Assembly (NCBI GenBank): GCA_964016885.1
Contig: OZ024747.1
Span: forward strand, 2,418,001 to 2,482,000
DNA length: 64,000 nucleotides
Origin: Eledone cirrhosa
Taxonomy: Eukaryota
Direction: 5' to 3'
Within the stretch, counting starts at the first letter, position 1, and each line of letters opens with the position of its first letter. Below the pieces are notes generated by a model. That model saw nothing but the letters and a program-made list of their open reading frames with translations, did no database searches and had not been told where the DNA came from. The position numbers and the translations under genes were made by a program. This document shows positions 12,737 through 42,566 of this stretch, one piece after another.

Positions 12737-12741
<5 letters not shown>

Positions 12742-12874
12742 AACCAGTAAGACCCCGACGGCTTGAGCTCAGCCGTCGGGGTCTTACTGGTTCCTATTTC
12801 CCACTCTACTACCCTAAGTACTGAGTACTTTGGTGCGTTATGGTCCACCTGGTTCCTTACCACACTTCCTTCAT

Positions 12875-12875
<1 letters not shown>
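12737..12875 (+). mobile_element. Fold-back element: perfect 27-bp-arm palindrome plus tail, inserted in (TA)n
   Basis: ataggaaccagtaagaccccgacggct-tgagctc-agccgtcggggtcttactggttcctat. The tail matches the reverse complement of 42411-42447. Confidence 0.85.
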
Positions 12876-12912
<37 letters not shown>

Positions 12913-12946
12913 CATATATATATATACATATATATATATTTATATG

Positions 12947-13130
12947 TAGGGTTAGTTCCACAACAAATTAACAAACCATGAGGACACGTGTTTCACTGAA
13001 CAGTTTGGTGAAACATGTCTCCTTGAGTATGGTTTGCTAATTTGTTGTGGCACTAACCCTATACCAAGCTTGTCCTTTGTACTGAGCGTTCTACCAACTA
13101 CGGATATAACCTTCCTGTTTCATACCACTA
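12947..13130 (+). mobile_element. Fold-back element with hammerhead 3' halves in both arms, in (TA)n
   Basis: Inverted repeat 12947-13061 centred at 13001-13003; the arms carry GAAACACGTGTC (minus) and GAAACATGTC (plus). Confidence 0.7.
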
Positions 13131-13187
13131 TATATATATATATATATATATATACACCAGTACGGATATTACCTTCCAGTGTTCTAC

Positions 13188-13223
<36 letters not shown>

Positions 13224-13439
13224 GTATATATAATTTGAAAGATTTGGTTGCTATATCTATAGAGTGTAAATCCTAGCATTTGGACAATTTTGACATTTAA
13301 TTGAAGAGTGTAACGTACAGCATTGTTTCTGCTAGGTTCAATGATTAAAAAGCAGGGGTGCACTGAGTGGGTTATTTTACATTCATAGAAAATCAATGAA
13401 TTTATCTTCCTTTGTAATTTGAAGATCATGATTTCAATT

Positions 13440-14000
13440 CTCACCTGTGGATCTTATTATTGGTTCATTCAATGTGATTGGTTTATACACTAATATCCCA
13501 CATAATTATTGACCAGAGGCTATTCAATATTGGCTCAACACATACATATGCGAATTACTGGACTGTTTAGAAACAAATTTCTTTATCGAAGGTCTCAGGT
13601 TTATTCTACAAAATAATTAATCTATGTTCAATGTACTTACCATAATGCCAAATTTGGGGAACAGCAATGGAGTGTACAAAAGTAACACTAACACATGCAA
13701 ATCTAGGTATGGGTTACCACGTCAAGGTAACCCATAACTAGATTTATGAAAAGCGACTTAAACAATTTGGAGTCAACTTAACATTTAAAAAAAATTTTCA
13801 TTTATCTTGGTGACTGTTTTATTTTATGGAAAGAAATGGTAGTACACTAGAGGGATTTAAAAATATTATAACCACCATAAATACCAATATATAATTCTCG
13901 ATAGAATTTAACAAGGAAGAACTTAACTTTTGAGATATTTTGATAATGATAATAGATGGACTGATTGAAACATATATTGATTATATATTCACAGACTCAA
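13440..14000 (+). mobile_element. Degraded Penelope-like reverse transcriptase fragment
   Basis: Manual translation across frameshifts gives SFNVIGLYTNIPH..EAIQYWL, FILQNN, GTAM, ANLGMGY, DCFILW and ELNF*DIL, in PLE RT motif order. Confidence 0.75.
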
Positions 14001-14004
14001 AACA

Positions 14005-14215
14005 CACTGCATCCTTTAAAACCTCCATGATTCCTGAAATTCACCGACACTACACTTGATATCCCCCCTCCATACACACACACACATGTCTATCATGACT
14101 CATACACTGTTCACTTTCCTGACATTTGTACATTATTCTATGTACTATACATGCACCTTTGATGAGTTGTAGTCCACCTGAGCACTGTACACAATAATTT
14201 CATTATTATTATCCT
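14005..14215 (+). mobile_element. CR1 3' tail copy
   Basis: Matches the 3' end of the element at 2812-3030 (ctgcatcctttaaaac ... cacctgagcactgtacacaat). Confidence 0.85.
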
Positions 14216-14224
14216 TAATATTAT

Positions 14225-14268
<44 letters not shown>

Positions 14269-14307
14269 TGTGTTGTGCTATGAGATGAATTATTATTATA
14301 TACATAT

Positions 14308-14340
<33 letters not shown>

Positions 14341-14871
14341 CACACTGTGTTGTGCTATGAGATGAATCATCGTGAATTGCTGTAACCTTTCTTCGGAAAT
14401 AGAAAAGAGTTGAGCAAGACAATAACAGTCTCTTCTCATAATAAAAAAAAAGGATATACTACTGGAATGGTTGAAACAGAGATGTGCAGCACAGCACAAA
14501 ATAGAAATAAACAAAACATAATTATATTTTATGTATGTCTATATAGGCACAACATAAACTCTGAGACATAGTTTTGATTCCTACTTTATTGTTTCATCTT
14601 TAAATCAAATCTTCCCACTTTTTAGAATAATCTTGTACATACTTTGTATTATTTCTCAAATGAACCAAATAAATAATCAGTTGCTTGGTTTAACACCACC
14701 ATCTCTGGTTATTGGATTTCTTTTGTAAAGTTCATTCTGTTGTAAACATTTGATCTAGGTCTTTGGTTTGAAGATAATCTCTTTCCTTTCTCTTACCAGT
14801 CTTGAAAAATTTGAAGAAATATAACTAAAAAAAATAAACCAACTGAACTAACAGTTAAGATATAGTGTAGA

Positions 14872-15117
14872 CCAACATTTCTCAACTGGTCTTCCCTAGA
14901 ATCCTAGGGTTTGGTAAGAGGTCACTAATTTGTTCCCTGAGAAACAGTGATAATTTGTAATTTTATTATAGACATATGGCATATTGTTGGCAAATCCTTT
15001 GTTATTTTAGTAAAGGCTTCAGCCTCTTATATTATTCAAAAGTATGTCTTTACCCATCGCTGTGTTGCTGGTGTTTTTCAAGGGTTCTACAAGGGTAAAA
15101 ATATTGAGAAACTCTTG
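14872..15117. mobile_element. hAT/Charlie-like MITE, diverged
   Basis: Ends catttctcaac ... attgagaaactc with subterminal gggtt motifs; no clear TSD. Confidence 0.45.
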
Positions 15118-15304
15118 TATAGATTGATTCACAGTCACAGAAAAGGGATTTCACATCATGTCTCTAAATCAGCTTACTTGAATTACACAGCTAATGCTCA
15201 TGAGTAGGGGAACCATGAAGATCACAACTTGCCACAGTTTCCACTTTACATCTAGCACTATGTACCCATAAAGTTTATTTTTATGTACAAACATGTATGT
15301 GTGC

Positions 15305-39789: not shown

Positions 39790-40108
39790 AGTCATGTAAA
39801 ATATCAGTTTATGACATTTCTAGTGAGAAATACAATAAACAGTAACAATATTGGAAAAGTAAAGAAAACTCAGGCAGAAAAAGAAATTATAATTTAAGTA
39901 CAGGCTTGGCTGTTTGGTTAAGAAGTACACTTGGCAACCACAGGGTCTAGGTCTCTAGCCTGTCTTATGGAAACTTGGGCAAGGGGCTTCTACTATAGTC
40001 TGGGGGTCACCAATGCCTTGTAGACAGAACCTGTACAGAGACCATAGTTTATAGTATATATACATACACACACACACACATATATATATATATGTATATA
40101 CACACATG

Positions 40109-40140
<32 letters not shown>

Positions 40141-40306
40141 CACCCACATACATACATACATATATATATACACCCACCCCTCACATACACTACAGGCAAA
40201 AACATCCCTATAAACTAATCCACCAATCAAAACAAACTTTATTGACCAACATATGAACTTCTGACTTTATCATACAGCATGTATTCATTTTCTACTAGCA
40301 TTACAA

Positions 40307-40403
40307 GGGGTCCGACGAGCCGCACATTACAGAGTCGGGTAAGATTGATACAGATCAAACCTTGAGCTGATCAGTGGTGAAACACGTGTCACCAACCAAT
40401 AAA
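40307..40403 (+). ncRNA. Variant hammerhead motif (CCGACGA core, long helix II)
   Basis: ggt CCGACGA gccgc-[~50 nt]-gtggt GAAA cacgt GTC acc, then AATAAA at 40398; second copy at 43188. Confidence 0.6.
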
Positions 40404-40545
40404 CATAATGAAGGAGTAACCAATCGTCCTTGTTATCTTTTCACTATAATACACTCTGTCTAGCTCTACACCTCCACACTGAAGTGAACCTAAACATCGA
40501 GTGCTCACCCGGGTGAACCTACAGTAACTCCAAGTTACACTCCCT

Positions 40546-40581
<36 letters not shown>

Positions 40582-40663
40582 GTTATTCCGGGTTGAATTG
40601 GAGGTAACCACAGTAAGTAAGGTACTCAATACATAGCAGAGTATAAAAGTTTTAATATAGATG

Positions 40664-40714
40664 AGATTCTACAGGACTAGAACTGTTTCATTCTTTAGAA
40701 ATCATCAGGAATCT
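40664..40714 (-). ncRNA. Type I hammerhead ribozyme, complete
   Basis: agattc CTGATGA t-ttc-taaa-gaa-t GAAA cag-ttctagtc-ct GTA gaatct: 6-bp helix I, 4-bp helix III, GUA site. Confidence 0.8.
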
Positions 40715-41013
40715 GGGTATCAAAAAATAAATATGGTATTTATAGGTCTCTTCAGGTGGTAGGAGAGGGTAGGGAGTGGGATGGGTAGAGGTCATTGGTT
40801 GATAGAAAAGGGAATTCATTAAAAGCTAATTCTTTAAGGTTCTACTTAGTGACAAAGGCCTAGAGAGTTCTATAGACCAGTTCAAAATATTATCTTCAAA
40901 TTTCTCTTAAACTATATTCCAAAAGTCAACAGACACATTCACACTCACACACACTCACACACACACTCGCGCGCAACCCCCCCCACATACATATATACAT
41001 AAATATATATCAC

Positions 41014-41045
<32 letters not shown>

Positions 41046-41105
41046 ACATATATATATATACATATATATATACACATATACATATATATATATACATACA
41101 CACAT

Positions 41106-41153
<48 letters not shown>

Positions 41154-41439
41154 TACACACATACACACACATATACATACATATACATACATACACACAT
41201 ACACGTATATATACACATACATACACACATATATATATATACACACATATATACATATATACACATATACACGTATGCATATATACATATATACATATAT
41301 ACACACATATACATACATATACATATATACATAATATATTTATATATATATATATATATATATTCACATATATGCATATACATATATATATATACACACA
41401 GACATACACACATACATACATACACATATATATACACAT

Positions 41440-41502
<63 letters not shown>

Positions 41503-41864
41503 TGAGGGGGTAGGTGTGAGTGTATATACAAGTCAACCAACATAAGCCTTTTATTTCTAAATTTTCTAAACTATTTAAGTATTTGACTCTAACCATTATT
41601 TTAAGTATTACCACCCCAGATTAATTCCTCAATTTGTATGTGTGGATGTGTGTGTGTGTCTGTGGAGGTGGGTGTGAGTGTACGTGAAAGCCAACCAACA
41701 TAAGACTTTTTATTTGTAAATTACTAGCATCTACAAACTGACCAATGAGAATTAAGACTATTCCTGCTGACAACATTAAATTATTCCTAACAAGCTCATA
41801 TGTCCCAAGGCTCTGATACCATCAACACCATAAACACAGAGCTGGCATATCTAAGAACTGACTA

Positions 41865-41922
41865 ACTGCCTGATGAGGTCATAGCCATTCAATGGCTATA
41901 ATCGAAATATATATATAGCAGT
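41865..41922 (+). ncRNA. Type I hammerhead ribozyme, complete, with palindromic helix III
   Basis: actgc CTGATGA ggtcatagccat-tca-atggctataatc GAAA tatatata TA gcagt, followed by AATAAA. Confidence 0.85.
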
Positions 41923-42104
41923 AAATAAAGGATAATGAGTTCATGCAATTGACTTATGTTTCATCACTATATATATATATATAATCATCATCGTTTAACG
42001 TCTATCTTCCATGGTAGCATGGGTTAGACGGAAATTTTCCCACTTGAGGCAAAATTGGTCGGGTAACCGTGTCTCGCTCAAATAGGACTATATATATATG
42101 TATA

Positions 42105-42410
42105 TCATCATCATCATCATCGTTTTATGTCCGCTTTTCCCTGCTTGCAAGGGTGGGATGGGAACTGATTCTGGGTTGATTTCTACAGCTGGATGCCCTT
42201 CCTAACACCAACCTCATTTACAGTGAGTGCTGGGTGCTTTTGCAGTGGAATGATGTGGACCCCAGTCCCTATCATCTCATTTCTACAGCTGAGTAAACTG
42301 GAGCAATGTGAAATAGAGTGTCTTGCCCAAGGAAACAACACATCACCTGGTCTGAGAATTGAACTCACAATCTTTAGATTGCAAGGCCAGTGCTCTAACC
42401 ACTAAGCCAT
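42105..42410 (-). mobile_element. SINE family 2, full-length
   Basis: Reverse complement of 57560-57900. Confidence 0.9.
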
Positions 42411-42566
42411 AAGTACTCAATACTTAGAGTAGTAGAGTGGGTAATAGGAATGAGTAGGACCCCGACGGCTGAGCTGAAGCCGTTTCGACGGCTAATTCTG
42501 GACTAATTTAGTCCAGAATTAGCCGTCGAAACAGCTTGAGCTCAGCCGTCGGGGTCCTACTCGTTC
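42411..42566 (-). mobile_element. Fold-back element: 59-bp-arm palindrome (42448-42566, centre 42507) with hammerhead 3' halves
   Basis: The arms read outward as GAAAC-(G/A)GCT-t(c/g)agctc-AGCC-GTC-GGGGTC; same family as 12737. Confidence 0.85.

What the first reader, a model, noticed from the sequence alone, without database searches (positions are those of the whole stretch)
12737..42566. DNA palindromes centred on ribozyme helix loops: one family, two inversion points
Seen: 12737-12797 and 42448-42566 share arm and tail sequence. In the 42-kb copy each arm reads GAAAC-GGCT-loop-AGCC-GTC-GGGGTC, and the symmetry centre (42507) lies upstream of GAAA, where helix II would be. In the 12.7-kb copy the centre is the helix III loop (tgagctc). 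In both, the CUGANGA half is replaced by an inverted copy of downstream sequence, and one arm is much shorter. Inference: nascent cDNA stalls in a ribozyme hairpin, snaps back and primes synthesis on itself. The ribozyme fold would then dictate the 5' inversion breakpoint and the inserted copy would lose its catalytic core. Inverted 5' pLTRs are known for PLEs; I do not know of this positional rule being described.
Basis: partly seen in the sequence, partly recalled or inferred. Interest (0 to 1): 0.8.

Follow-up and report, generated by a model that had tools for sequence, protein, structure and literature searches.

The report
Retrotransposon palindromes record RNA start points
These mirror-image DNA stubs are insertions of an abundant Penelope-type jumping gene, and their fold points likely mark where the element's RNA began (its predicted transcription start or its predicted ribozyme cut) rather than where a ribozyme hairpin stalled copying, which would make the genome a fossil record of how such elements insert.

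Summary
Both palindromes are real. They are 5'-truncated insertions of a Hydra-clade Penelope-like element (about 20,000 tail hits; intact 718-aa ORF in locus L121) in (TA)n. The parent has a hammerhead with a UUGANAA core, not CUGANGA. Centres are strongly non-random, but the loop/snap-back rule fails. In 53 of 66 palindromes the centre falls at an initiator-like site next to the helix II loop, and no arm crosses that loop. Helix III copies are rare (198) and keep the loop on either arm (15:18). In a sister family the centre sits at a TATA/initiator site upstream of the core. A second sharp class (431) stops at the predicted self-cleavage bond with untemplated A/T, whereas arms ending at the initiator site are more often followed by C than T (43:9), as expected for a capped end. 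Best model: one RNA is copied twice from two fixed start sites, both copies run off its 5' end and are joined head to head. Inverted ends and tails are known; this positional rule, and a genomic trace of ribozyme cleavage, were not in the papers I found. No RNA data were available.

The parts
12737..12763 (-). Copy A: short inverted arm, element positions +61 to +35 (+1 = A of the TTAGTCC motif); outer end abuts (TA)n
12758..12875 (+). Copy A: tail-bearing arm, element positions +22 to +139; the first 6 bases (ACGGCT) are microhomology shared with the short arm
   Evidence: BLAST to natural copy L061, 94% over 118 bases
12764..12770 (+). Copy A: helix III loop TGAGCTC (+28..+34), the symmetry centre
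12777..12778 (+). Copy A: predicted hammerhead scissile bond (+41/+42, after GUC)
   Evidence: fold of parent copies; activity not tested
12798..12875 (+). Copy A: 78-base tail present on one arm only, followed by (TA)n
42411..42506 (-). Copy B: tail-bearing arm, positions -1 to +94 (+1 at 42504); tail cut short by an unrelated repeat
42507..42566 (+). Copy B: short arm, positions about -2 to +57 (+1 at 42510); outer end abuts (TA)n
42502..42512 (.). Copy B: junction at the initiator-like TTAGT motif of both arms, the main inversion hotspot of the family (inferred transcription start)
42300..42410 (-). Unrelated dispersed repeat (looks tRNA-derived by eye) that replaces the rest of B's tail; limits approximate
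   Evidence: three further partial matches in the window; ARAGORN finds no tRNA gene

Best explanation
The palindromes are truncated insertions of a Hydra-clade Penelope-like retrotransposon, each likely built by copying one RNA twice, with the fold point likely marking that RNA's 5' end. Shown: two head-to-head arms with fixed outer ends at +61 and +139 in (TA)n, the same subfamily on both arms, variable junctions, a hard edge at an initiator-like motif (+1) and a second edge at the predicted scissile bond (+42). Inferred: the enzyme nicks both target strands, primes at the two fixed sites near the RNA's 5' end, both cDNAs run off the template, gain untemplated bases (C at a cap, A at an uncapped cut end) and are joined by end joining. 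Helix III copies such as A would arise when the two ends anneal through the stem's own inverted repeat. In this family the inferred start lies inside helix II, so short copies lack the 5' half of the ribozyme because the RNA would never have contained it.
For: Edge at +1: 53 of 66 palindromes have their most upstream arm end in -4..+8, 95 of 132 arm ends lie there, none further up. Symmetry: short arm reaches further in 31, tail arm in 24, equal in 11; helix III loop polarity 15:18. One template: subfamily letters agree between arms in 48 of 51, against 42% expected if independent. Fixed outer ends; in L121 the tail is on the inverted arm instead. Sister family F2: 32 of 40 palindromes have their edge in 0..+8 of a CCAGATT motif with TATAWATA 30-32 bases upstream in 4 of 5 reference copies, upstream of the core. 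Tandem units restart at +1, +2 and about -2 (L033, L104, L119 twice). Cut-site class: 431 hits, control 6; of 43 fetched, 19 have both arms ending at +42 with an insert and 5 read CCCCGGGG; no arm end at +40 or +39. Next base at +42: A 19, T 14, C 5; next non-A base at +1: C 43, G 48, T 9 of 100 listed (hand count), and 16 of 26 C cases are not explained by the partner arm. In vitro, a Poseidon element nicks and extends both strands and starts at two internal sites that bound the tail (PMC11167929). For MMLV reverse transcriptase, caps favour +C and uncapped G-ended RNA gives +A/+AA among others (PMC6885630).
Against: No RNA 5'-end data and no ribozyme assay. The strict TATA+initiator match holds for only 1 of 4 reference copies of this family. 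In this family the hotspot is also next to the helix II loop and directly after a pyrimidine-rich TTTAG that could be a splice acceptor. The cap signal is modest: in the first 30 unselected rows unexplained bases were C 3, G 7, T 3, and A additions cannot be seen because they match the template. F2 has no cut-site class (45 hits, none of that form), which fits an inactive minimal ribozyme but equally fits stalling at the stable helix III of this family. Later trimming of palindrome centres could blur polarity. The hammerhead is not recognised by Rfam and its fold is no more stable than shuffles (z -0.32). The supporting biochemistry comes from other enzymes.
Confidence: 0.64

Rival explanations
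1. One cDNA runs off the RNA's 5' end, folds back at or near its own 3' end and copies itself; fixed outer ends come from endonuclease resolution, and later trimming of the centre removes the polarity. The centre still marks the RNA 5' end, but only one priming event occurs.
For: Arms agree in subfamily in 48 of 51; long arms tend to pair with long arms (about 23 head-to-head pairs among 100 listed cores, hand count); 23 of 66 junctions leave room for a loop. Self-priming and endonuclease resolution have been proposed (PMC3846280; PMC8557442).
Against: In 31 of 66 the short arm reaches further upstream than the tail arm, by up to about 79 bases, while still ending at the hotspot; helix III polarity is 15:18; both arms carry untemplated bases in cut-site copies.
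Confidence: 0.17
2. One reading: the cDNA stalls in ribozyme hairpins, snaps back at the helix II or III loop and primes on itself, so the fold dictates the breakpoint.
For: The hotspot edge (-4) touches the 3' side of the predicted helix II loop; 198 palindromes are centred on the helix III loop; the +42 edge is 2 bases from the base of helix III.
Against: The helix II loop is retained in 0 of 66 called palindromes; helix III polarity is even; F2 centres lie upstream of the core; family F3 centres also lie at or upstream of the core by eye.
Confidence: 0.07
3. The hotspot is a 3' splice site: the template is a spliced or splicing-derived RNA whose second exon begins there.
For: Both F1 (TTTTCATTTAG) and F2 (T-rich tract then CCCAG) look like acceptors; in Drosophila virilis Penelope an intron ends at the 5' end of helix I (PMC4209133; PMC2377424).
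Against: Arms often include the AG itself; no recurring first-exon sequence at junctions (59 of 66 distinct); TATA spacing in F2 fits a start at the A.
Confidence: 0.07
4. The palindromes are copies of a few master hairpin elements, products of later deletion of long inverted repeats, or assembly artefacts.
For: Long inverted repeats exist (L121) and palindrome centres are deletion-prone (general knowledge).
Against: 59 of 66 junctions are distinct across several subfamilies; edges are base-sharp at +1 and +42; B's arms have diverged; contigs of a public run show similar varied joints across the centre (that run may not be independent of the assembly).
Confidence: 0.05

Closest known systems
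Hydra clade of Penelope-like elements (Craig et al. 2021, PMC8557442), e.g. Hydra-1_Obim
   Same: C-terminal GIY-YIG-type nuclease, RWK/RWR, DKT, CxCX5C linker, CxxC and CxH near the end, (TA)n target, hammerhead near the 3' end.
   Different: By eye a different family from Hydra-1_Obim in protein and ribozyme sequence; U3-A8 core, long helix II and 6-bp helix III; the paper does not map inversion centres in the passages I read.
Inverted pLTR plus tail of Penelope elements (Arkhipova et al. 2013, PMC3846280; Schostak et al. 2008, PMC2377424)
   Same: Head-to-head inverted 5' copy, tail on one arm, partial tandems, promoter within the pLTR.
   Different: The tail is 78 bases here against 30-40; those papers explain the palindromes by self-priming, possibly on an antisense template, and the passages read give no rule tying centres to the start site or the ribozyme cut.
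Poseidon from Anolis, in vitro (Frangieh et al. 2024, PMC11167929)
   Same: Two internal start sites for reverse transcription bounding the tail; both target strands nicked and extended; AT-rich target.
   Different: Other clade; the paper does not address inverted arms, found cleavage dispensable in vitro and saw no reads ending at the cut site.
PLE hammerheads with U3-A8 core (Cervera and De la Pena 2014, PMC4209133)
   Same: U3-A8 covariation, type I topology, pairs of motifs on opposite strands.
   Different: Theirs are minimal motifs with little activity as monomers; this one has a full helix III and a helix II that encloses the inferred promoter.
Twin priming of LINE-1 (recalled, no call)
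   Same: Both target strands prime on one RNA and give an inversion.
   Different: In LINE-1 the two cDNAs cover different parts of the RNA; here both would cover the same 5' part, giving a palindrome.

Membership tests
Hydra-clade PLE | Single ORF with RT and C-terminal GIY-YIG-type endonuclease | tested here: met
   Open frame of 786 codons in L121, 718 aa after the first in-frame Met; YRDD in 26 of 26 aligned homologues, YIG in 20 of 26. Pfam and PDB searches gave no hit, so domain names rest on motifs and by-eye likeness to the published alignment.
Hydra-clade PLE | RWK motif and DKG changed to DKT | tested here: met
   RWR here (RWK in 20 of 26), DKT in 25 of 26 (definition)
Hydra-clade PLE | CxCX5C linker; no CCHH finger between GIY and YIG; CxxC and CxH near the end | tested here: met
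   CNCPDRSIC, one Cys only between IY and YIG, CNLC and CKH
Hydra-clade PLE | Insertion into (TA)n | tested here: met
   TA repeat follows the short arm in nearly all of 60 scored and the tail in nearly all of 77 scored
Hydra-clade PLE | Placement in the Hydra clade on an RT tree | not tested
   No tree with named reference elements was built
Neptune-clade PLE | CX2-5CxxC linker and CCHH finger | tested here: not met
   Linker is CxCX5C and the CCHH cysteine pair is absent
Type I hammerhead ribozyme | Three helices around (C/U)UGAN(G/A)A, GAAA and NUH with a 3-8 pair | tested here: met
   The unconstrained fold of L061/L121 gives this topology; TTGANAA in 77 of 100 listed, position 7 variable; 20 of 100 have C3 with A8, a mismatch (hand count)
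Type I hammerhead ribozyme | Match to an Rfam hammerhead model | tested here: not met
   No hammerhead match up to E 10
Type I hammerhead ribozyme | Self-cleavage after NUH | not testable with these tools
   Indirect only: arm ends pile at +42
Snap-back (self-primed) inversion at a hairpin loop | First-made, tail-bearing arm retains the loop | tested here: not met
   15 of 33 for helix III; 0 of 66 for helix II
Pol II start site at the hotspot | TATA at about -30 and initiator at +1 | tested here: inconclusive
   Met in 4 of 5 F2 references and 1 of 4 F1 references; about 0.0003-0.0012 such sites per position in shuffles
Pol II start site at the hotspot | Capped RNA 5' ends at +1 | not testable with these tools
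   No RNA holder listed

The most novel reading that the evidence does not exclude
Tens of thousands of Penelope-like palindromes are base-resolution fossils of RNA 5' ends. Each insertion is made by double target-primed copying of one RNA; centres map the promoter and the ribozyme cut; untemplated bases record cap status. The +42 class is genomic proof that a PLE hammerhead cleaves in the germ line and that the cut RNA is retrotransposed. In this family the promoter sits inside helix II, so the capped mRNA carries only half a ribozyme while read-through RNA carries a whole one.
Probability: 0.45. Interest if true: 0.8.

Novelty: new variant of a known kind. Interest (0 to 1): 0.62.

Why it matters
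How Penelope-like elements make their inverted ends, and whether their hammerheads cut in vivo, are stated as open in the papers read (PMC8557442: function unclear; PMC4209133: no in vivo evidence; PMC11167929: no reads at the cut site). If centres mark RNA 5' ends, any genome assembly gives start sites, ribozyme activity and priming sites for these elements without RNA data, and the two-strand priming seen in vitro gains an in vivo footprint. It also gives direct bench predictions: move the template's 5' end and the centre should move; disrupt a helix and it should not.

Tried and rejected
Rfam scan of the window: only microsatellite-driven noise in the 150 listed of 252 matches; none for the parent hammerhead. 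Pfam and PDB: no hit for the ORF. RNA runs: no RNA holder listed, so expression and start sites are untested. Contigs of public runs: no piece bridges either window palindrome by the tool's 31-base rule; this says nothing either way. The 30 loci were selected for full-length match to B and were not used for counts. Neptune assignment, my first guess, was dropped on motifs. Automatic junction calling failed on family F3, so F3 is described by eye only. Family F4 (2,718 hits) has few inversions and a truncation hotspot at a TA microhomology, so it is uninformative. The F2 cut-site test was negative and does not separate cleavage from stalling. Discordant arms as a sign of two RNA templates: only 3 of 51, rejected as a general rule. 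CpG decay as the source of the A/T at +42 junctions: undecayed forms are almost absent among the 43 fetched, rejected. Two searches for papers on cap copying by retrotransposon enzymes gave nothing useful.
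Full report
Observation. Both palindromes are in the window as described. A spans 12737-12797 with 27 identical bases per arm around TGAGCTC; B spans 42448-42566 with centre 42507 and 3 differences in 59 bases. They share arm and tail at 90%. The host assembly is 3.0 Gb and rich in TA repeats. 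A 30-base piece of the tail has 19,949 exact hits and the reversed control none.

The element. I took the first 90 of the 100 listed tail hits, all on contig C1, as a sample chosen only by the tail; exact matching favours young copies. Six run far upstream without a nearby inversion. One, in L121, continues into an open frame of 786 codons with 2,219 database relatives among 8,000 candidates scored. It carries RWR, DKT, YRDD, a CxCX5C linker, YIG, CxxC and CxH, the diagnostics given for the Hydra clade (PMC8557442, section read). Pfam and PDB gave no match and I built no tree. L121 shows the known layout: an inverted arm of 830 bases, a truncated upstream unit, then the full ORF.

The ribozyme. 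Parent copies fold unaided into a type I hammerhead in the best case, L061; other copies need the core held open or misfold. The 5' core half has 5,071 hits; in the 100 listed it reads TTGANAA 77 times, CTGANAA 20 times, other 3, CTGANGA never (hand count). U3-A8 is a described variant (PMC4209133). Rfam does not recognise it. I number from the A of TTAGTCC as +1, with 0 the base before. The helix II loop is then -7..-4, GAAA +19..+22, the helix III loop +28..+34, the scissile bond +41/+42, the short-arm end +61 and the tail end +139.

Where the centres are. The script called 66 of 90 as short palindromes. The 24 left out are, by eye, 6 long copies, 4 divergent palindromes it missed, 3 tandem restarts, 1 complex locus and 10 simple truncations into TA. 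In 53 of 66 the most upstream arm end is in -4..+8; 95 of 132 arm ends lie there and none further up. Copy B belongs to this class. Two of 66 are centred near helix III. Genome-wide, the helix III form that copy A shows has 198 exact hits; the patterns differ, so this is only roughly 1% of the family.

Test of snap-back. A first-strand cDNA primed at the tail that folds back must keep the loop on the tail arm. Of 35 helix III copies fetched, 33 have one tail: 15 keep the loop on the tail arm and 18 on the short arm. At the main hotspot neither arm passes the helix II loop, 43 of 66 junctions leave no room for a loop on the tail arm, and the short arm reaches further in 31 cases against 24. Arms agree in subfamily letters in 48 of 51, against 42% by chance, and 59 of 66 junctions are distinct. 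So each palindrome is made anew, from one template, without polarity. Later trimming of centres could have contributed.

A natural control. A sister family in the same window, F2, has 12,045 tail hits. Of 69 loci analysed (70 fetched, one mis-fetched), 40 were called palindromic; 32 have their edge in 0..+8 of the A in CCAGATT, two lie far upstream and six downstream. That A is 6 bases upstream of CUGAUGA, so 31 of 39 copies with an inverted arm keep the core half. TATAWATA lies 30-32 bases upstream in 4 of 5 references. In the family of this finding the strict TATA plus initiator test passes in 1 of 4 references, though all four share an AWATACCA motif with F2 at a similar distance. A third family, F3 (3,888 hits), has centres at or upstream of its core by eye. 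The hotspot thus follows a promoter-like site and not the helices. Tandem units that restart at +1, +2 and about -2 after ORF or 3' UTR sequence (L033, L104, L119) also fit run-off from a fixed 5' end.

The cut-site class. A pattern for palindromes centred between +39 and +46 gives 431 hits, control 6. Of the first 50, 43 were examined in loci: 41 have one tail; 19 have both arms ending at +42 with an insert, 5 read CCCCGGGG, 6 have an arm that continues on the template, 13 have a shorter or mutated arm. No arm ends at +40 or +39. Simple truncations into TA also start most often at +42, about 36 of 65 distinct loci (hand count). The base after +42 in cDNA sense is A 19, T 14, C 5 (G excluded by definition). 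After +1, the 100 listed non-A bases of 7,536 are C 43, G 48, T 9 (hand count); 16 of 26 C cases are unexplained by the partner arm, but in the first 30 unselected rows unexplained bases were C 3, G 7, T 3. The contrast fits a capped end at +1 and an uncapped end at +42 (MMLV data, PMC6885630), and is suggestive only. Against a general rule, F2 has no such class: 45 hits, 6 of them one unrelated tandem array and the rest joins within the helix III region. This fits a weak minimal ribozyme, but also stalling at the stable helix III of this family.

Mechanism. I favour double priming on one RNA. A Poseidon enzyme nicks and extends both strands and starts at two internal sites that bound the tail (PMC11167929). 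[quoted passage not shown] Helix III copies would be microhomology joins through ACGGCT/AGCCGT. The start site, the cleavage and the double priming are inferred, not shown.

What is known. Inverted ends, tails, tandems and pLTR promoters are described (PMC3846280, passages and Discussion; PMC2377424, passages; PMC8557442, passages, one section and supplement searches). I read parts 1-2 of 4 of PMC11167929 and PMC4209133, part 1 of 5 and a term search of bioRxiv 10.64898/2026.07.22.740005 (its supplements not seen), and passages of PMC3681739 and PMC9977147 with nothing on this point. Ten searches turned up no statement that centres map to the start site or the cut site. The library lacks most subscription papers, including early Penelope work, so prior description cannot be excluded. 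One earlier AI note on another genome also concluded that the mirror half is built at each insertion; it is not independent evidence.

Verdict. Interest 0.62.

Noticed in passing
window 16833-16945; further pieces near 40605-40708 and 31806: Palindrome and copies of sister family F2 (CTGATGA core, centre just upstream of the core); used as the control family.
   Followed up: yes
window 12947-13061 and 13062-13190: Another hammerhead-like hairpin with a one-sided tail, related to family F3 by its tail; F3 parents carry GCGCATGCGC (recalled as an NRF-1-like site) upstream of a pyrimidine tract where arms end.
   Followed up: partly
window about 41860-41950: Complete CTGATGA...GAAA hammerhead of family F4 (2,718 tail hits); many copies are 5'-truncated at one CATATG site about 70 bases upstream of the core and few are inverted.
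   Followed up: partly
window 18079-18744: Inverted repeat with 233-base arms, each holding a full CTGATGA...GAAAC motif (18253 minus, 18570 plus): a further family with the centre well upstream of the ribozyme.
   Followed up: no
window 20166-20239, 45867-45926, 10411-10493, 5216-5404, 12506-12555, 13699-13745: More short hairpins outside microsatellites; some recur in other loci and may be further Penelope-like stubs.
   Followed up: no
L038, L009, L018 and 20 of 100 rows: A lineage with C3 opposite A8, a mismatch in the catalytic 3-8 pair, has still spread; a natural test of whether cleavage is needed.
   Followed up: partly
L119 and L122: Insertions made of several short units, each beginning at the hotspot and ending at different places in the ORF; they look like end-to-end template jumps.
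   Followed up: partly
L121 minus strand, about 1-1170: Unrelated 392-codon frame with a YADD reverse transcriptase motif, a different retrotransposon next to the element.
   Followed up: no
window 1-2084 and 53206-54529: Long degenerate 3-base-period tandem arrays in opposite orientation.
   Followed up: no
L121:3849-3987: RNA starting at +1 is predicted to form a different hairpin (+12..+27) that competes with helix III.
   Followed up: partly
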